The translations under genes were made by a program, and so were the position numbers. Below, in pieces: positions 41,027 to 50,860 of a stretch of 51,960 bases of DNA; position 1 is the stretch's first letter, and each line of letters opens with the position of its first letter. The notes under the pieces were generated by a model, which saw only the letters and a program-made list of their open reading frames with translations, did not search any database and was not told the origin of the DNA. The DNA comes from a phage, in sequence record PZ000615.1, one strand, 5' to 3'.

Positions 41027-44000
41027 ATGGCTAAAATCATTTCCGCCCGTAAGGGTGGCGGCAGTAAGCCGCATCAACCTCGCGAGATGGACGACAACCT
41101 AATCTCACGCGACAAAATCAAAATATTGCTAGCGCTCTCTGATGGTGAAGTGGATGAGGGATTCACCCTGAAAGATCTGCTTTTCGATGACGTTCCGGTT
41201 GTTGCAGCCGATGGGACAGAGAACTATCAGAATGTTAGAGCTGAGTTCCGCTACGGTACGCAAGAACAATCTTACATTCCAGGGTTCACCGAGTCGAACA
41301 ACGAAATCACCGTTCAGCGTGACGTATCGACTGAAACGCCATACGTAATCAGCGTTACTAACCAAGTATTGAGCGCTATCCGAATTCGAATGATGACGGA
41401 TCGAATTGCTCACACCAAGGATAACGGCGACACCGTAGGCGCAAAAGTTGAGTATAGATTCGACATGGCTATCAACGGCGGCGCGTATGAGGAAGTGACG
41501 CGAACTGTGTTTGACGGTAAGAATACAAGCGGGTATGACCGTTCGATCAGGATCAACTTGCCGGAGAGTTACCAGCAGGTATTGATTCGAGTTGTGCGAC
41601 TTACTCCGGACGACTCAAGCGACAGGACTCAAAGCAAGTTCAGGGTTCAGAGCTACAGCGAAGTGATTGACGCTAAGTTTCGCTATCCTCTGACGGCTTT
41701 ACTGTTCGTTGAGTTTGATTCTGACCTGTTCCCGAACCAGTTGCCGACAATCTCAGTCAAGAAGAAATGGAAAAAGATTCAGGTTCCAGTGAACTACGAT
41801 CCGGTTTCCCGAACTTACTCCGGCACTTGGAACGGCATGTTCAAAACCGCATGGTCTAACAACCCTGCATGGGTTCTGTATGACCTGATCATGAATCAGC
41901 GTTACGGGCTTGATCAGAAGGAACTCGGAATTGACGTGGATAAGTGGAGCCTCTACGAGGTTGCTCAATACTGCGATCAGATGGTTCCAGATGGTCACGG
42001 TGGACAGGAGCCGCGCTACCTTTGCGATATGGTTGTTCAATCTCAGGTTGAGGCTTACCGACTGATTCGTGACGTTTGCTCTATTTTCCGTGGGATGTCG
42101 TTCTACAACGGTGAGAGCTTGTCAATCGTAATCGACAAGCCGCGAGATCCGGTTTACCTGTTCACGAATGACAACGTTGTCGACGGCGCGTTTGCCAGGG
42201 TGTTCGCTTCAGAGAAAAGCATGTACACGAGCGTTAACGTGATGTTTGATGACCGAGAGAACATGTTTAACCAGGACGTCGAGCCAGTGTTTGATAATGA
42301 GGCATCTCGCCGTTTTGGTAACAACCCGACAGACATCACGGCAATCGGATGCACGCGACGCAGTGAGGCTAACCGCCGAGGTCGCTGGATTATCAAAACG
42401 AACCTCCGGAGCACGACGGTAAACTTTGCGACTGGGCTTGAGGGCATGATTCCGATGATTGGCGATGTTATCGCAGTTTCCGATAACCATTGGCAACACA
42501 ACATCATGTATAACCTTTCCGGTCGACTGATGGAGGTTTCAGGAGTGCAGGTGTTCACGTCGTTCCGTGTCGATGCAAGGCCAGGTGATTTCATTATCGT
42601 TAACAGACCTGACGGCAAGCCACAGAAGAGAACAATCTCCCGCGTATCGTCAGACGGAAAAACGATAACGCTGAACGTAGGTTTCGGGTTTGCTGTTCAG
42701 CCTGACGCTGTTTTCGCGATTGAGCGCTCCGATCTGACGTTTGAACAATACGTTGTTACCAAGATCGAGAAGGGAGACGGCGACGAGGAATTTGTTCACC
42801 GCATCACGGCGATTGAATACGATCCGACCAAATATGACGCCATTGACTACGGTGTCGTGATTGACCAGCGACCAACAAGCATTGTTGATCCTGATCACCT
42901 GAAAGCGCCTGAAGGAATCAAGATTTCCTCTTTCTCTCGCGTAGTTCAGGGGATGAGCATTGAAACGATGGTTGTGAACTGGAATAAGGTTCAGTATGCA
43001 AACCGATACGAAATGCAGTGGCGCAAGGATAATGGCAACTGGAACAACACTCCACAAACAGCAGCAACCGAGATTGACGTTGAGGGGATTTACGCTGGTG
43101 TTTATGAGGTTCGAGTTCGCGCAGTGTCGGCAGCGGGTAACGTGTCGCCATGGTCAGAGATTGAGGTTAAATCCCTGACTGGTAAAACTGGCAAGCCGAA
43201 CAAGCCGATTAACCTCACAGCTACAGACGGTGAAGTTTTCGGTATTCGTGTCAAGTGGGGTATGCCTGAAGGATCTGGTGATACTGCTTACGTAGAGTTA
43301 CAGCAAGCTCCTGACGACAACGCCGGAGGTTATTTACCTGAGGCGGCGACTCTGGTTAGCATGGTTCCTTACCCTCAGCATGAATACTGGCACAGCGTAC
43401 TACCGAGCGGCTTCATCAACTGGTATCGCGTTCGCTCAGTGGACAAGATCGGAAACGTGTCGGACTGGACTGATTTCGTTCGCGGAATGGCTACGGATGA
43501 CGTAGACAAAATTGGCGAGGTTGTCAAGATTGAGTTTGAAGAGACGGAAGGTTTCAAGGAATTGAAAAAAACCGTTGAGGAGTTGGTTGGTCAGCTTGAC
43601 GAGCAAAGCGAAGAACTCAAAGAGACAGGCGATACCATGAAGGACTACGGAGCCAAACTCAGAGCACAGGCTGAGGCTGATATTGAGAACGCGCTAGCGA
43701 ACAACACGGATGTGATCCGGATGACCAAGGAGAACGGAAAGCGTAAGGCTGAGTTCAGATTTGCGGTTAACCTGGTTGCTACGGAGAGTGAGGCGAGAGC
43801 GGAGGCTATCACCAAGCTATCAGCACAGTTTGACGAGGATATCGGGGCGGCGGTCACTCGCATGGATCAGGCAATCGCGAAAGAAGGTGAGGCGCGAGCG
43901 AAAGCAATCGCAGATCTGAAAGCGCAGATTGACGATGAGGTAGTGGCTCAGATTACAACCGTTCAGGAGGCGCTGGCGAAGGAAACGGAAACTCGCGTCA

Positions 44001-44929
44001 CTCAGTACCAGGAAATGAGCGCCAGACTTGGTAAAGCCGAGGGTAGCATTACCAATAACGCAACGGCTATCGTGACGGAGAGAGAGGCAAGGGTTCAGCA
44101 GTACAACCAGCTCAACTCTAAGATCGACGGCAACCAGACATCAACAAATGCAAGCATCGGCAGACTTGACCAGGCAATCACGACGGAAACAAACGCTCGT
44201 GTTAGCCAGTACAACGAGCTTAACGCAAGCATCAAGGGAGTAGATACTAAGGTTGACGGGCAGGTCAAACGACTTGATCAGGCTATTGTTGATGAGCGTA
44301 ACGCGCGAGTGACTTCAATCACTCAAGTTACGGCAACGGCAAACGCGGCGCAGTCTACCGCAAACACTGCAAACGGAAAGGCAGACCAGGCTAACACTAA
44401 AGCAGGACAGGCGCAGACGACAGCTAACCAGGCACAGGCGACGGCAAGCACTAAGCTTGATGCCAACGCAAGCACTAGCGGAGCGGTAAACGCGTCTTAC
44501 ACTGTGAACCTTGGCGTTAAGATGGTTGATGGTAAGCAGGTAAACGCAGGTATGATGATCGACATTACAGGGACTACGGCGGCACCTAAGGGAAGGGTTT
44601 TCTTTAACGTTGATCAGTTTGGTGTTGGTAAAATTGCTGGCGGTAAGATTATCGCAATGCCGTTCTTTATGGAAGGTAACGCGGTATACATGCAAGCTGC
44701 ATTTATCAAGAACGGTACAATCGACAACGCCAAGATCGGGAGCTTTATCCAGTCAAACAACTACGTAGCAAACTCTGCTGGTTGGCGGCTTGATAAGAAC
44801 GGGACGTTTGTTAACTTTGGCTCTACTGCTAACGAAGGGTCAATGAAGCAGGATAACCAAACGATCACCGTAAGGGACAGGAACGCAAGGGTAAGAGTTC
44901 AGATTGGACGCATTACCGGAGTGTGGTAA
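41027..44929 (+). CDS. Central tail fibre / host specificity protein (lambda gpJ-like)
   Basis: 1300-aa ORF after I-like gene; C-terminal region with repeated coiled-coil units. Confidence 0.8.
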   Translation: MAKIISARKGGGSKPHQPREMDDNLISRDKIKILLALSDGEVDEGFTLKDLLFDDVPVVAADGTENYQNVRAEFRYGTQEQSYIPGFTESNNEITVQRDVSTETPYVISVTNQVLSAIRIRMMTDRIAHTKDNGDTVGAKVEYRFDMAINGGAYEEVTRTVFDGKNTSGYDRSIRINLPESYQQVLIRVVRLTPDDSSDRTQSKFRVQSYSEVIDAKFRYPLTALLFVEFDSDLFPNQLPTISVKKKWKKIQVPVNYDPVSRTYSGTWNGMFKTAWSNNPAWVLYDLIMNQRYGLDQKELGIDVDKWSLYEVAQYCDQMVPDGHGGQEPRYLCDMVVQSQVEAYRLIRDVCSIFRGMSFYNGESLSIVIDKPRDPVYLFTNDNVVDGAFARVFASEKSMYTSVNVMFDDRENMFNQDVEPVFDNEASRRFGNNPTDITAIGCTRRSEANRRGRWIIKTNLRSTTVNFATGLEGMIPMIGDVIAVSDNHWQHNIMYNLSGRLMEVSGVQVFTSFRVDARPGDFIIVNRPDGKPQKRTISRVSSDGKTITLNVGFGFAVQPDAVFAIERSDLTFEQYVVTKIEKGDGDEEFVHRITAIEYDPTKYDAIDYGVVIDQRPTSIVDPDHLKAPEGIKISSFSRVVQGMSIETMVVNWNKVQYANRYEMQWRKDNGNWNNTPQTAATEIDVEGIYAGVYEVRVRAVSAAGNVSPWSEIEVKSLTGKTGKPNKPINLTATDGEVFGIRVKWGMPEGSGDTAYVELQQAPDDNAGGYLPEAATLVSMVPYPQHEYWHSVLPSGFINWYRVRSVDKIGNVSDWTDFVRGMATDDVDKIGEVVKIEFEETEGFKELKKTVEELVGQLDEQSEELKETGDTMKDYGAKLRAQAEADIENALANNTDVIRMTKENGKRKAEFRFAVNLVATESEARAEAITKLSAQFDEDIGAAVTRMDQAIAKEGEARAKAIADLKAQIDDEVVAQITTVQEALAKETETRVTQYQEMSARLGKAEGSITNNATAIVTEREARVQQYNQLNSKIDGNQTSTNASIGRLDQAITTETNARVSQYNELNASIKGVDTKVDGQVKRLDQAIVDERNARVTSITQVTATANAAQSTANTANGKADQANTKAGQAQTTANQAQATASTKLDANASTSGAVNASYTVNLGVKMVDGKQVNAGMMIDITGTTAAPKGRVFFNVDQFGVGKIAGGKIIAMPFFMEGNAVYMQAAFIKNGTIDNAKIGSFIQSNNYVANSAGWRLDKNGTFVNFGSTANEGSMKQDNQTITVRDRNARVRVQIGRITGVW

Positions 44930-44935
44930 AGTATT

Positions 44936-44964
44936 GGGACTGCTAAGGCAGTCCCTTTTTTTTT
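44936..44964 (+). terminator. Rho-independent terminator after J-like gene
   Basis: GGGACTGC-TAAG-GCAGTCCC followed by T9. Confidence 0.7.
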
Positions 44965-44982
44965 ATTAGAGAGGTTTTAACA

Positions 44983-45297
44983 ATGGCTGAATATGGTGTA
45001 GCAACGTGGGACGGGAACGGGAGGCCGAACAACTATGGCATAAAGCCTGTAAGCGTAAGTGGAACTTTGCAGTTATCAAGGGGGCAGAAGTCAGGATCTT
45101 ATTCTGTAGCTGTTCCACCTGGCTGCAAGCTAACATACTTCCAAGTGTCAAATGACGCAAACTACACAACTCAGAGGAGGAAGATAAACATAAATGGTGG
45201 AAATGTGTCTATTACCGGAGTTTCAGATACTGATTATTCCGCAAACACAGAGCCAGCAATAGCGGCTTTTCTTATATTTCAGATAGAGGCTTCTTAA
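44983..45297 (+). CDS. Hypothetical protein (paralogue of next gene)
   Basis: Starts MAEYGV; low-GC segment downstream of J. Confidence 0.45.
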   Translation: MAEYGVATWDGNGRPNNYGIKPVSVSGTLQLSRGQKSGSYSVAVPPGCKLTYFQVSNDANYTTQRRKININGGNVSITGVSDTDYSANTEPAIAAFLIFQIEAS

Positions 45298-45963
45298 ATG
45301 GCTGATTATGGTGTTTTACTATCAACAACAAGCGGCGGAGTGTGGGTTACTCCAGAAAGCACACCCATAGCATTACAGGCGAAGAAAACCGCCAATTTAC
45401 AGGCAACTTCAGGATTTAACGTAAAAATATCCCACACCTTTCCAGCGGGGAAACCAGTAATACCTTTCGTTCATGTTACTGCTGAGTGCGAGATAACTTC
45501 ATCAATAAGTGGCAATGTTATAACAATTGATTTCCTTAGACCTACAGCAAATGGTGTTGCTGAGGTTTACTTCTTTAGTATATTCCCCCAAACCAAACCT
45601 CAATACGGTTTAGCTGTTTGGGATGCGGCTGGTGTTTTGGTTCTAACAAATGAAACCAAAACGCTTACAGACGTTGAGCGGATTGGCGCGCCAGGATCGG
45701 AAAGTTCAGGTTACAACATAAATGTGACAAGATCCGGAAAGTGGGCTTGCATACCTGGAATGCTTGGATTGATAACAGGAGTAATATCAACTGGTATGCC
45801 AAGGCCTTACCAGGCAATATACAAAACAATAGCCTTAAGGGAGGGGGCTAACACAAGGATAAAAGCGAGACCCCAATCAGCCCCAGGAGGTCCGATCCAA
45901 AACGTCATGTACAGCAACATGAGAAATTCCATAATGGCAATAAATGTTGCTAACTATGATTAA
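45298..45963 (+). CDS. Hypothetical protein (paralogue of previous gene)
   Basis: Starts MADYGV; low-GC; followed by terminator. Confidence 0.45.
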   Translation: MADYGVLLSTTSGGVWVTPESTPIALQAKKTANLQATSGFNVKISHTFPAGKPVIPFVHVTAECEITSSISGNVITIDFLRPTANGVAEVYFFSIFPQTKPQYGLAVWDAAGVLVLTNETKTLTDVERIGAPGSESSGYNINVTRSGKWACIPGMLGLITGVISTGMPRPYQAIYKTIALREGANTRIKARPQSAPGGPIQNVMYSNMRNSIMAINVANYD

Positions 45964-45985
45964 GCGCCTGCGGGCGCTTTTTTTG
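45964..45985 (+). terminator. Rho-independent terminator
   Basis: GCGCC-TGC-GGGCGC followed by T7. Confidence 0.55.
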
Positions 45986-46010
45986 TTTCTTACTCAATGG
46001 TACAATAGCG

Positions 46011-46029
46011 TTTAGCAAAAAGTGCTATT
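46011..46029 (+). promoter_or_regulatory. Inverted copy of palindromic element upstream of tail fibre gene
   Basis: TTTAGCAAAAAGTGCTATT (reverse complement of AATAGCACTTTTTGCTAAA) embedded in larger inverted repeat AATAGCG...GCTATT; between terminator 45964-45985 and tail fibre start. Confidence 0.3.
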
Positions 46030-46049
46030 CATAACATGAGGGCTTGACA

Positions 46050-48029
46050 ATGGCAATTTATAGAAAAGGTGAGGCATCACTCGCGGCAGACGGTACTGTT
46101 ACCGGATACGGTACGAACTGGAAAGATCAGCTTGCTCTGGTTCGAATCGGCGCGACCGTCGTATTCCTGACTGGTAACGCAATTAGCGCTATCGGGACGG
46201 TATCGGCTATCGTGTCTGAAACTCAACTTCAAACCATTCAGACTGACGGCGCTGTCGTTGCCCGTGGTAAGTATTTCATCCTACTGCATGACTCGCTGAC
46301 GGTTGACGGCCTGGCGCAAAACGTTGCTGAGACACTCCGTTATTATCAGTCACAAGAAACTGAGATTGCTGACGCGGTTGATTATTTCAGAACTTTCGAC
46401 TGGGAGAAGTTTGAGAAGATCGCGACATCGGTTAAGACCAGCGCGGCGGCTGCTAAGGTTTCAGAAACCAACGCCAAAACATCAGAGACGAACGCCAAGG
46501 CTAGCGAGAATGCGTCACTGCAAAGCAAGAACTCGGCGGCAGGTTCAGCTACGGCAGCAAAAACCAGTGAGACTAACGCAAAGACGTCTGAGACTCGCTC
46601 AAAGACTTCAGAGACTAACTCTGCTGCATCGGCTGTAACGGCAACCAACGAGGCAGACCGAGCCAAGCGTGAAGCTGATCGCGCTGCGGCGGCTAACCCT
46701 GACAACGCGTTACTGAAAGCGAATAACCTGAGTGACGTTCCGGATAAGGCGGCTGCAAGGGCTAACCTTCAAATCGATAGATTTAACCAAGACTCAACAA
46801 CTGAGACAAGGATTCTGTCTGGTGATAAGTCTCAGGCTATGATTGTGTCAACTGGTTCCACGTGGGGAGTGTACAGGTTTGGATCTGGTTGGGTTCCTCT
46901 AGAGATTGCTCAGGGCGGAACCGGAGCAAGCAATGCAGAAGGGGCAAGGAAGAGCTTGCAGTTAAGTGGTGATGACTACGTCAACTTTAATGGATTATCT
47001 TTGAAAAACCAGTTAACGATGAGTAGCAACGGGCAGCCAATTTCACCAACGCTGCTTACAAGGGTGTTTGATGCAAGTGGAAGCAACCTTCTCGGTTCTG
47101 CTGAATTGAGAGCTAACTCAAATGGTAACGTAGAACTCGTTAATAGGATTTCTGGATCGCCAAGGGCGCTGGCGCTATTCCCTGATGGTTCTGTTGCTTT
47201 TTCATCGTTTAATGGCAGATTCATAAGTCAAGGCATGGGTCTTGGGGTCGGTCGAGATATTTCTACTGGTTACGTACTCAATGCAATGAAGGATGTCATC
47301 AACAACGGAGAAACTCAGGCGTTCAGGGTTACTGGGACTGGTGGCATGGTTATTGGTGGAGTTAACTTCCAATATGCACCTTCAATGTCATTCCATTCTG
47401 GAGATGTAGTAGGGGCTTTGTGGGTTGACTACAGGACTGGTAACGCAATGACTGTTTCCGGAACAAGGTCATCTATACTTGGTAACACGACTCCAAATCA
47501 GAACGTGTTATGGGGTACTGCTAACACAACTGTTGACGCTAACGGATTTTTGAAAAGGGCATCACCAATAGTCAAGATTATGAGTAATTCATTTGAGACT
47601 AATGAAGAGTCCGAGGGCGTTTTAGTAACAAGGGTTGGAGTTGGTGAATATCTTGTTTCGGGATGTCTTGGGCTTCATTCAGATCTTGCGTGGGGTGGCG
47701 TAGATGGAGGATTTGAAGTTCCAAAAGACAGGAATGGACAGAACAAGATATGGGTTGACTATGACATGAAAGAGGATGGTTCAATTCTGGTTAAAACCTA
47801 CCACAGGGAGTATAAAGACGTTCCTGAGTTCGCCAAAAACAAGAAGGATGGTTTTGAGGATGGTCAGCCTATTGATATCCCATATGACTCATTCTTAAGC
47901 ATTCGAGTTGAAATGCCGGAGGACAGCGCATACAACAAGAGAATTAGGGAGGCCGAATCAGATGTAAGAAGCAACGCAAACAGGGAATGGTGGAGTAAAA
48001 TACACGAAACTGGTTGCGAGGAGGAATAA
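46050..48029 (+). CDS. Tail fibre protein
   Basis: ATG 46050; N-terminal repeated KTSETNAK / Ala-Ser-Thr-rich collar motif typical of phage tail fibres; divergent C-terminal domain. Confidence 0.7.
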
Positions 48030-50407: not shown

Positions 50408-50860
50408 AACGGAGGATTGCGGAAATTTACGGAGGATTTGAAATCTGGCTCTAAGCCTTGCCACTACTGGATTTGTCGACAATCTACGCCGGAAAATGTC
50501 GATTTTCTCGCTCTATAGACACCAAAAACGCAGAAAACAGGCACAAAAAAAGATCCAATAACCCAATAATCAACATAATCCTCCGTAAATAAATAATATA
50601 CATCACATAGATAATGATAATATCTATATATATTAGACACTTACGTATATCTAAAGGTTGAAAATAGCTCATTATTTGAACGAAATTCGCGGAGGATTGA
50701 TCCGGCGTAAATTCCGCAAATTCTGTAAGTAACTGATTTTGTTGAATGCAATTGCGGAGGATTTTTTCGTGAATCTCCCGTAAATCGGCCTTGTTTAAGT
50801 TTGTTAAATCTTTTTCCGGAGGATTGCGGAGGATTGCGGAGGGTTTGCGGAGGATTTTTC
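50408..50860. repeat. Iteron/AT-rich non-coding region B, paralogous to region A
   Basis: CGGAGGATT copies at 50410-50440, 50575-50588 (inverted), 50688-50700, 50750-50765, four tandem copies 50816-50856; AT-rich core 50580-50660; shares TACGCCGGAAAATGTCGATTT and ATAACCCAATAATCAACATAATCCTCCGTAAA with region A. Confidence 0.6.

What the first reader, a model, noticed from the sequence alone, without database searches (positions are those of the whole stretch)
44983..45963. Low-GC pair of paralogous genes inserted between the J-like gene and the tail fibre gene
Two adjacent ORFs begin with the same N-terminus (MAEYGV / MADYGV) and sit in a visibly AT-richer segment bounded by strong terminators at 44936-44964 and 45964-45985. 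Position and composition suggest a horizontally acquired moron in the host-range region. Candidate roles are tail fibre accessory or chaperone proteins, receptor-masking or superinfection-exclusion factors.
Basis: seen in the sequence. Interest (0 to 1): 0.5.

Follow-up and report, generated by a model that had tools for sequence, protein, structure and literature searches.

The report
Tail-tip receptor-binding gene pair
The two small AT-rich genes after the J-like gene are most likely not an inserted extra (moron) but the conserved, exchangeable cassette that T1-like and lambda-like phages probably use to build the receptor-binding tip of the tail; this copy is an ordinary member of that family, whose function has not been settled by experiment.

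Summary
ORF1 (44983-45297, 104 aa) and ORF2 (45298-45963, 221 aa) exist as described. They are the 3rd-lowest and lowest GC3 genes of 78 in the window. Hairpin terminators flank them. They are true paralogues: ORF1 matches the N-terminal half of ORF2 (hhalign 96%).

The moron, chaperone and exclusion readings are not supported. The pair (PHROG 557 + 425) sits next to the J gene in T1, HK022/HK225, weberviruses, dhillonviruses and Enterobacter prophages (after the fibre genes in SSU5). It is under purifying selection (dN/dS 0.04-0.08). Neither protein has a signal peptide or lipobox.

The last ~70 residues of J track the cassette type.

Best reading: ORF2 is the terminal receptor-binding protein, probably for an FhuA-like transporter, and ORF1 is a small paralogous tip or adaptor subunit. 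This is a new member of a known kind.

The parts
44711..44929 (+). Codons for the last ~70 residues of the J-like central fibre protein: proposed docking tip for the cassette proteins (lies at the end of the Pfam Phage_Tail_Tip region, J residues 1141-1274)
   Evidence: The last 60-70 aa are 68-73% identical in T1, HK225, Sushi and the Enterobacter prophage, although J residues ~990-1140 are only 0-25% identical. Identity is 42-58% in AAS23 and swan01 (divergent cassettes) and 23-27% in Oekolampad (DUF6453 cassette). Pfam hit. GC already falls from ~44450.
44936..44964 (+). GC-rich 8-bp stem-loop plus U9: intrinsic terminator or attenuator between J and ORF1
   Evidence: -16.4 kcal/mol, z -5.0. 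A stem-loop at the same place, with different stem sequences, is present in Ec_L1, T1, Sushi, AAS23, Bas09, Bas13, Roth93 and the Enterobacter prophage (sequences; T1, Sushi, AAS23, Bas09 and the prophage folded). No sigma-70-like promoter lies between it and ORF1.
44983..45297 (+). ORF1, 104 aa: small beta-sandwich protein (PHROG 557), paralogue of the N-terminal half of ORF2; proposed tail-tip adaptor or accessory subunit
45298..45963 (+). ORF2, 221 aa: two-domain beta-sandwich protein (PHROG 425); proposed terminal receptor-binding protein. Conserved hairpin motifs at aa 1-23 and 96-125; variable sandwiches at aa 24-95 and 126-216
45962..45985 (+). Intrinsic terminator closing the cassette
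   Evidence: 7-bp GC stem, U run, -12.8 kcal/mol.
46050..48029 (+). Lateral tail fibre gene (context, not part of the cassette): probable primary, reversible adsorption fibre
   Evidence: PHROG 1591 E 3e-118 and Pfam Phage_tail_C_2 E 7e-57. The distal two thirds cannot be aligned with the Ec_L1 fibre.

Best explanation
ORF1 and ORF2 are the distal tail-tip cassette of a T1-like (Drexlerviridae, Eclunavirus-like) phage, the locus that the literature calls the 'bona fide RBP locus downstream of gpJ'.

ORF2 is the terminal receptor-binding protein. It docks non-covalently on the C-terminal tip of the trimeric J fibre and binds an outer-membrane protein of the host. That receptor is most probably an FhuA-like TonB-dependent transporter of Enterobacter. 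Binding gives irreversible adsorption and triggers DNA ejection.

ORF1 is a small paralogue of the ORF2 N-terminal domain. It acts as a second tip subunit or adaptor.

Docking is inferred to use the short, strongly conserved N-terminal hairpin motif (YG-x3-W-D/N-x2-G). This motif occurs three times: once at the ORF1 N-terminus, once at the ORF2 N-terminus and once in the middle of ORF2. The variable beta-sandwich bodies are inferred to face outward.

The two genes are translationally coupled. They lie behind a terminator-like hairpin, which probably lowers their expression relative to J.

The cassette, together with the J tip, moves between phage lineages as a unit. This would explain its deviant composition.

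Shown here: gene structure, composition, paralogy, conservation and position, purifying selection, fold and profile similarity to a solved RBP, co-variation with the J tip, and exchange between lineages. Taken from papers: virion presence of a homologue and FhuA dependence of carriers. Inferred: docking mode, stoichiometry, and receptor identity in this phage.
For: Membership and position. ORF1 matches PHROG 557 and ORF2 matches PHROG 425. ORF2 has tblastn homologues in 397 phage records and ORF1 in 347, with the same taxonomic spread. In every locus opened the pair sits directly after J or abutting it; SSU5 is the exception, where it follows the fibre genes.

Remote homology. The deep ORF2 family matches DUF6453 (the Oekolampad RBP family) in hhalign at 90% probability (E 1.7e-6, 97 columns). 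Seven of 82 family representatives hit PF20051.

Virion presence. AAS23 gp23, which is 27% identical to ORF2, was detected in virions by LC-MS/MS (PMC8004638).

Receptor. T1, HK022, N15, ES18 and phi80 all carry the cassette and all use FhuA, while relatives that do not use FhuA lack it (PMC13164509 citing Wietzorrek 2006). Weberviruses are sensitive to fhuA mutations, and Roth93 gp53/gp54 is absent from the insensitive phage Roth44. The predicted gp54-FhuA complex has ipTM 0.75 (PMC12629751). gp53/gp54 are the pair directly after J and are 44% identical to ORF1 and ORF2. An Enterobacter prophage pair 71% identical to ORF1 and ORF2 is followed by a Cor homologue, 70% identical to HK225 Cor.

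J tip. The last ~70 aa of J co-vary with the cassette type. A 2026 preprint independently flags the GpJ tip as specificity-associated (10.64898/2026.04.02.716166).

Docking motif. The hairpin segments are the most conserved parts yet have the lowest pLDDT in the monomer models. This pattern fits segments that fold on a partner.

Selection. dN/dS is 0.079 for ORF1 and 0.044 for ORF2 against Ec_L1.

Independence from cor. No cor homologue is found anywhere in this window. None is annotated at the locus in Ec_L1 or in the weberviruses Sushi and Roth93. The pair therefore does not depend on Cor.
Against: - No direct experiment exists for any member of the FhuA-type family. No structure has been solved, and sequence searches of the PDB find nothing.
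- ORF2 itself does not reach Pfam DUF6453.
- The ORF1 homologue of AAS23 (gp22) was not reported in virions.
- The T1 cryo-EM map does not resolve the distal end of J (PMC11945409).
- One paper assumes the two proteins are related to superinfection exclusion (PMC13164509).
[quoted passage not shown] Receptor identity at 34-44% identity is therefore a probability, not a certainty.
- No multimer prediction could be run here.
Confidence: 0.7

Rival explanations
1. The proteins are assembly factors, not virion receptor-binding proteins. In this reading ORF1, or both proteins, act as chaperones or adaptors that help fold or attach the J tip or the neighbouring lateral tail fibre, and are absent or substoichiometric in the particle.
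For: - The position between J and the lateral fibre gene in this window.
- AAS23 gp22, the ORF1 homologue, was not reported among virion proteins.
- The authors of PMC12309495 first considered 'structural or chaperone-like roles'.
- ORF1 is small, and its most conserved part is a short N-terminal motif.
Against: - In T1, Sushi, Bas03 and Bas13 the lateral fibre gene is elsewhere or on the other strand, while the pair stays with J.
- There is no Pfam or PHROG match to tail-fibre assembly families.
- The ORF2 homologue is in virions.
- The ORF2 fold matches a solved RBP.
Confidence: 0.13
2. The proteins are superinfection-exclusion or receptor-masking factors. In this reading they act in the infected cell envelope, together with or instead of Cor, to block the receptor against secondary infection.
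For: - In FhuA-dependent coliphages the pair is linked to cor.
- Database labels read 'outer membrane protein' and 'membrane associated protein'.
- PMC13164509 assumes a Sie-related role.
Against: - There is no signal peptide, lipobox or transmembrane segment. The maximum 19-residue hydropathy is 0.74 for ORF1 and 1.43 for ORF2, and the lipobox scan found nothing credible at the locus, only a minus-strand overlap ORF (44966-45169).
- Computed membrane affinity of homologues is low (PMC12309495).
- The pair is kept under purifying selection in virulent phages with no cor at the locus.
- It co-varies with the J tip.
- A homologue is a virion protein.
Confidence: 0.06
3. The pair is a moron: a recently acquired, autonomously expressed pair that benefits the host or phage but is dispensable for the virion.
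For: - The lowest GC3 in the genome.
- Flanking terminators.
Against: - The pair is present in every relative examined, with low GC3 in all eight phage relatives checked and in the Enterobacter prophage.
- No promoter-like site lies upstream.
- The upstream hairpin is itself conserved.
- The phage is a virulent T1-like type, with no lysogeny in which a moron would be expressed.
- Against Ec_L1, the pair is the best conserved stretch of the 13 kb compared (90-96.5% identity).
Confidence: 0.03

Closest known systems
FhuA-type cassette downstream of gpJ in T1 (AZS32466/AZS32465), HK022 p24/p25, N15 gp22/gp23, phi80 gp22/gp23, ES18 gp29/gp30, Dhillonvirus JLBYU60 YP_010740311/312 and Webervirus Roth93 gp53/gp54 (PHROG 557 + PHROG 425)
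   Same: - The same two families in the same order, adjacent to J, and with the same sizes (about 100 and about 220 aa).
- The same conserved N-terminal motifs and the same type of J C-terminal tip.
- ORF2 identity is 34% to T1, 37% to HK225, 38% to JLBYU60 and 44% to Roth93.
   Different: - No Cor lipoprotein gene follows the pair here, as is also the case in Ec_L1 and the weberviruses.
- The lateral fibre gene follows directly on the same strand.
- The host is presumably Enterobacter.
- The function of the family is inferred, not demonstrated.
Oekolampad (Bas18) RBP, Pfam DUF6453 (PF20051), PDB 9RPT chain C: the LptD-binding receptor-binding protein of a small siphophage
   Same: - Encoded at the same locus beside the J gene.
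- Profile-profile homology at 90% probability over ORF2 54-160 against RBP 162-264.
- An N-terminal G-h-h-h-D-x-N/x-G hairpin-like motif (seen by eye) that is the most conserved part of the family.
- The tail-proximal part is disordered in isolation (PMC12685063).
   Different: - It is a single 321-aa chain rather than two chains of 104 and 221 aa.
- It lies on the opposite strand to J.
- There is no significant pairwise or HMM sequence match to ORF2.
- It binds a different receptor (LptD) and has a different exclusion partner (Rtp45-type).
- The J tip is only 23-27% identical.
T5 pb5 on the pb4 central fibre, with the Llp exclusion lipoprotein
   Same: The working principle is the same: a separate, non-covalently attached protein at the end of a trimeric straight fibre binds FhuA irreversibly. 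A cognate lipoprotein often blocks the same receptor from inside.
   Different: There is no sequence or fold relation in any search here. pb5 is a single 640-aa protein encoded elsewhere in the genome. This similarity is from established knowledge of T5 (PMC9586334), not from a test here.
Lambda lom (a moron between J and stf)
   Same: It occupies the same map position between J and the side fibre gene and has deviant composition.
   Different: Lom is a signal-peptide-bearing outer-membrane beta-barrel expressed from the prophage. ORF1 and ORF2 have no signal peptide, are soluble beta-sandwiches, and occur in virulent phages. The database label 'outer membrane protein' on PHROG 557 appears to be inherited from this positional analogy.

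Membership tests
FhuA-type RBP cassette of T1-like and lambdoid siphophages (PHROG 557 + PHROG 425) | Sequence membership of both proteins | tested here: met
   PHROG 557 E 7.1e-30 over residues 3-102; PHROG 425 E 5.5e-67 over residues 1-221. tblastn gives 34-44% identity to the T1, HK225, JLBYU60 and webervirus proteins.
FhuA-type RBP cassette of T1-like and lambdoid siphophages (PHROG 557 + PHROG 425) | Small gene then ~220-aa gene, adjacent to each other and to the J-like gene | tested here: met
   J ends at 44929, ORF1 starts at 44983 and ORF2 at 45298. T1, HK225, Sushi, AAS23, Bas03/09/13, Roth93 and the Enterobacter prophage have the same layout.
FhuA-type RBP cassette of T1-like and lambdoid siphophages (PHROG 557 + PHROG 425) | Matching J C-terminal tip | tested here: met
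   The last ~70 aa are 68-73% identical to carriers of the same cassette type, against 23-27% for the DUF6453 carrier.
FhuA-type RBP cassette of T1-like and lambdoid siphophages (PHROG 557 + PHROG 425) | Accompanying Cor exclusion lipoprotein | tested here: not met
   tblastn with five Cor proteins finds nothing below E 0.3 in the window, and there is no lipobox ORF at the locus. Cor is also absent from the locus as annotated in Ec_L1 and the weberviruses, so it is a frequent companion rather than a defining part.
FhuA-type RBP cassette of T1-like and lambdoid siphophages (PHROG 557 + PHROG 425) | Infection depends on FhuA; the protein binds FhuA | not testable with these tools
   Indirect evidence only: FhuA dependence of carriers and Cor next to the 71%-identical prophage cassette.
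FhuA-type RBP cassette of T1-like and lambdoid siphophages (PHROG 557 + PHROG 425) | Protein present in the virion tail tip | not testable with these tools
   The homologue AAS23 gp23 was found by LC-MS/MS of virions; gp22 was not reported (PMC8004638).
Pfam DUF6453 (PF20051), the family of the solved Oekolampad LptD-binding RBP | Match to the Pfam model | tested here: not met
   ORF2 has no Pfam hit at E<=1. Only 7 of 82 family representatives hit PF20051, with a best E of 9.4e-6.
Pfam DUF6453 (PF20051), the family of the solved Oekolampad LptD-binding RBP | Shared fold and remote homology | tested here: met
Moron (lambda lom/bor type) | Patchy presence among close relatives | tested here: not met
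   The pair is present in all relatives examined, and it is the best conserved stretch against Ec_L1.
Moron (lambda lom/bor type) | Own promoter and terminator; deviant composition | tested here: inconclusive
   A terminator is present and composition is deviant. No sigma-70-like promoter lies upstream. The scan covers only one promoter type.
Cor / Llp / Rtp45-type exclusion lipoproteins | Signal peptide with a lipobox cysteine; about 60-80 aa | tested here: not met
   The N-termini MAEYGVATWDGNG and MADYGVLLSTTSG contain no lipobox, and there is no similarity to Cor.
Tail fibre assembly chaperones (Tfa / gp38 type) | Family match and position downstream of the fibre gene they serve | tested here: not met
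   No Pfam or PHROG chaperone hit. The genes lie upstream of the fibre gene here and are unlinked to it in T1 and Sushi.

The most novel reading that the evidence does not exclude
ORF1 and ORF2 together provide three homologous modules, each made of a conserved docking hairpin plus a variable beta-sandwich. One copy of each protein would therefore form a pseudo-threefold cap that matches the three subunits of the J tip.

The single-chain DUF6453 RBPs (321 aa, against 104 + 221 aa here) would then be the fused three-module form of the same ancestor. In that case the receptor-binding families of small siphophages that a 2026 preprint treats as unrelated (at least the FhuA and LptD types) would be one superfamily, diversified by domain duplication and by gene fission or fusion.
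Probability: 0.25. Interest if true: 0.6.

Novelty: new member of a known kind. Interest (0 to 1): 0.33.

Why it matters
Terminal receptor choice decides which bacteria a siphophage can kill and which resistance mutations arise. For T1-like phages the FhuA-type cassette has been named as the determinant only by correlation and structure prediction, and one recent paper reads the same genes as exclusion factors.

This window adds an Enterobacter-phage member that carries no cor gene, which argues against the exclusion reading. The analysis also ties the family by fold and by profile to the one solved RBP from this locus.

Three further results give concrete constructs for structural work and for swapping receptor specificity between Enterobacter, Klebsiella and E. 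coli phages. The J tip co-varies with the cassette. The cassette moves between temperate and virulent lineages. The docking motifs are the conserved parts.

For annotation, the labels 'outer membrane protein' and 'membrane associated protein / moron' attached to PHROG 557 and 425 look wrong.

Tried and rejected
- Pfam gave nothing for either protein.
- Sequence searches of the PDB with the single proteins and with profiles found nothing meaningful.
- hhalign with the shallow alignments failed. ORF1 against ORF2 aligned only a 12-column motif (49%). ORF2 against DUF6453 gave 0.6% and ORF1 against DUF6453 gave 2%. Only the 82-sequence alignment built from the representative search gave signal.
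- ORF1 against the N-terminal third of DUF6453 gave no support (1%). The fission/fusion idea is therefore unproven for that module.
- The search for cor in the window was negative.
- Readthrough of the in-frame TAA between ORF1 and ORF2 was considered and rejected. The two genes are in different frames or overlap in T1, HK225, Sushi and Bas09.
- Opposite-strand ORFs inside the region (for example 44966-45169, 67 aa) were treated as spurious, because the plus-strand genes are under clear purifying selection.
- Per-phage receptor assignments in the BASEL paper sit in figures and could not be read.
- A multimer prediction of the J tip with ORF1 and ORF2 could not be run, because only single-chain jobs are offered and both were used.

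Full report
**What the window is.** The region 44400-46600 is 86% identical in DNA to Enterobacter phage Ec_L1 (Drexlerviridae, Eclunavirus) and to phage Phc. The gene order matches Ec_L1: tape measure, M, L, K, I, J, two small genes, lateral fibre, then ssb, erf, exonuclease and primase on the other strand. This is a virulent T1-like siphophage, presumably of Enterobacter.

**Checking the observation.** ORF1 (44983-45297, 104 aa, MAEYGV...) and ORF2 (45298-45963, 221 aa, MADYGV...) are as described.
- Each has a Shine-Dalgarno sequence 8 nt upstream. The TAA of ORF1 is directly followed by the ATG of ORF2, in the same frame.
- The pair has 43.4% GC against 48.4% for the window, the 3rd percentile of windows of that size.
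- ORF2 has the lowest GC3 of 78 genes (0.351; mean 0.528, sd 0.057). ORF1 has the third lowest.
- Both flanking hairpins are real. The first is at 44936-44955 with a U9 run (-16.4 kcal/mol, z -5.0). The second is at 45962-45979 with a U run (-12.8 kcal/mol).

**Are the two genes paralogues?**
- Pairwise BLASTP gives only the six N-terminal residues and an 11-residue motif, ORF1 3-13 against ORF2 102-112 (E 0.006).
- Shallow profiles give only that motif.
- A search of 1.8 billion representatives with the ORF2 profile found 123 clusters. An 82-sequence alignment of these (A4) gives a clear answer.
- The ORF1 family aligns with the N-terminal half of the ORF2 family over its full length. The tool reports 90% probability. 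A local run with an enlarged ORF1 alignment gives 96.2%, E 2e-9, over 96 columns.
- The two halves of ORF2 are related to each other (92.5%, 55 columns).
- There are therefore three homologous modules: one in ORF1 and two in ORF2.

**Distribution.**
- ORF1 matches PHROG 557 and ORF2 matches PHROG 425. Their database labels, 'outer membrane protein' and 'membrane associated protein / moron', have no support here. Neither protein has a signal peptide or hydrophobic segment.
- tblastn finds ORF2 homologues in 397 phage records and ORF1 homologues in 347, with the same taxonomic spread.
- The pair directly follows J in T1, HK225 (the record notes similarity to HK022 p24/p25), Sushi, AAS23, Bas03, Bas09, Bas13 and Roth93. 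The same layout is found in Enterobacter chromosomes, that is, in prophages.
- In swan01 the cassette is inverted and abuts the end of J. In SSU5 it follows the fibre genes.
- The lateral fibre gene is not linked to the pair in T1 or Sushi. The pair therefore belongs with J, not with the fibre.
- Low GC3 relative to J is seen in all eight phage relatives checked and in the Enterobacter prophage. It is a trait of the cassette, not a mark of recent arrival in this genome.

**The genes are functional and have their own history.**
- Against Ec_L1, dN/dS is 0.079 for ORF1 and 0.044 for ORF2. dS is 0.52 and 0.30, compared with 1.03 for J, 1.98 for gpI and 1.82 for erf.
- In a sliding comparison, 45100-46100 is the best conserved stretch of 13.5 kb (90-96.5%). 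The distal two thirds of the lateral fibre gene cannot be aligned.
- ORF1 and ORF2 are 71% identical to the pair of an Enterobacter prophage whose J is 37% and gpI 43% identical.
- The cassette is therefore exchanged between temperate and virulent lineages.

**The J tip travels with the cassette.** The last ~70 residues of J are 68-73% identical in T1, HK225, Sushi and the prophage, although residues ~990-1140 are only 0-25% identical. Identity at the tip is 42-58% in AAS23 and swan01, whose ORF2 homologues are only 24-27% identical. It is 23-27% in Oekolampad, which has a different RBP. A 2026 preprint reached a similar view from k-mer models (10.64898/2026.04.02.716166).

**Structure.**
- AlphaFold2 models have a mean pLDDT of 83.6 for ORF1 and 77.0 for ORF2.
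- ORF1 consists of a low-confidence 22-residue N-terminus followed by a seven-strand sandwich.
- ORF2 repeats that plan in residues 1-95, then has a second low-confidence segment (100-123) and a second sandwich (126-216).
- The low-confidence segments are the most conserved parts of both families: 2.1-2.3 bits against 1.2-1.3 bits in ORF2. I read this as segments that fold only on a partner.
- Foldseek against the PDB found nothing.
- That protein (bas18_0025, 321 aa) is encoded beside J in Oekolampad and belongs to Pfam DUF6453.
- The deep ORF2 profile aligns with a DUF6453 profile at 90% probability: ORF2 54-160 against RBP 162-264. Seven of 82 family representatives hit PF20051. ORF2 itself does not hit it.

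**What papers add.**
- The BASEL study called this locus the 'bona fide RBP locus' because its alleles track the terminal receptor (PMC8594841).
- The Oekolampad RBP binds LptDE in a cryo-EM structure, and its tail-proximal part is disordered (PMC12685063).
- AF2-multimer models of dhillonvirus homologues place the ~220-aa 'hand-like' protein as a monomer on all three chains of the J tip (PMC12309495).
- AAS23 gp23, the ORF2 homologue, was found in virions by LC-MS/MS. gp22 was not reported (PMC8004638).
- Weberviruses are sensitive to fhuA mutations. Roth93 gp53/gp54 are missing from an insensitive relative, and the predicted gp54-FhuA complex has ipTM 0.75 (PMC12629751). I verified that gp53/gp54 are the pair after J and that they are 44% identical to ORF1 and ORF2.
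- T1, HK022, N15, ES18 and phi80 all carry the cassette and all use FhuA. However, the same paper assumes an exclusion role for the two proteins (PMC13164509).
- The T1 cryo-EM map does not resolve the distal end of J (PMC11945409).

**Receptor.** The window has no cor gene. The 71%-identical prophage cassette is followed by a Cor homologue, 70% identical to HK225 Cor, and Cor is the known FhuA blocker. Together with the webervirus data, this makes an FhuA-like transporter the most likely receptor. Divergent family members in warwickviruses belong to phages reported not to rely on FhuA alone (PMC10373560), so this step remains an inference.

**Expression.** No sigma-70-like promoter lies between the J terminator and ORF1. 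A GC-rich stem-loop sits at the same place in T1, Sushi, AAS23, Bas09 and the prophage, with different stem sequences and with or without a U run. I infer attenuation that sets the amount of cassette proteins below that of J. This has not been tested.

**Verdict.** The pair is the tail-tip receptor-recognition cassette of this phage. ORF2 is the probable receptor-binding protein and ORF1 a paralogous small tip or adaptor subunit. The moron, chaperone and exclusion readings are poorly supported. This is a new member of a known kind, so interest is modest. What goes beyond the literature is the fold and profile link between the FhuA-type proteins and DUF6453, the three-module architecture, and the co-transfer of the J tip with the cassette.

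Noticed in passing
window 46500-48000: The distal two thirds of the lateral tail fibre gene cannot be aligned with the Ec_L1 fibre (about 40-60% identity with many gaps; 661 aa here against 818 aa there), while the 5' end and both flanks are 78-90% identical. This fibre swap, not the ORF1/ORF2 pair, is the variable host-range element relative to the nearest relative.
   Followed up: partly
window 44936-44964; L002 5654-5698; L004 5642-5686; L005 5661-5694; L007 4456-4500; L019 7643-7685: A 7-10 bp GC-rich stem with a tetraloop lies between the J stop codon and the start of the small gene in every Drexlerviridae relative and in the Enterobacter prophage. The stem sequences differ, and only some are followed by a U run. 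It looks like a conserved attenuator or RNA-stability element.
   Followed up: partly
L019 8781-9014 (Enterobacter sp. chromosome, GCA_011752765.1): The prophage copy of the cassette is followed by a 77-aa lipoprotein 70% identical to HK225 Cor. The window, Ec_L1 and the weberviruses have no cor at this locus. The virulent lineages seem to have taken or kept the receptor-binding genes without the exclusion gene.
   Followed up: yes
window 44000-44450 (J residues ~990-1140): The coiled-coil-like shaft of J is 0-25% identical even to relatives whose N-terminal 800 residues are 60-90% identical. It has weak SF-assemblin and alanine-zipper Pfam hits and strong A over T skew. This is a hypervariable spacer between a conserved hub part and a conserved tip.
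   Followed up: partly
L015 3948-5112 (phage swan01): In this warwickvirus the cassette is inverted relative to J and preceded by an 89-aa lipoprotein (MKKLIAVIATVAALTGC...). This is probably a different exclusion protein paired with a divergent (24% identical) ORF2-type protein.
   Followed up: no
window 50450-50750: This is the lowest-GC stretch of the last 14 kb (0.35). It lies between the exonuclease and primase genes on the minus strand and could be a promoter or origin region.
   Followed up: no
window 45295-45300: ORF1 and ORF2 are in the same frame, separated only by TAA-ATG, and Ec_L1 is the same. Their summed length (325 aa) nearly equals the single-chain DUF6453 RBP (321 aa). The frame relation is not conserved in T1, HK225, Sushi or Bas09, so readthrough is unlikely.
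   Followed up: yes
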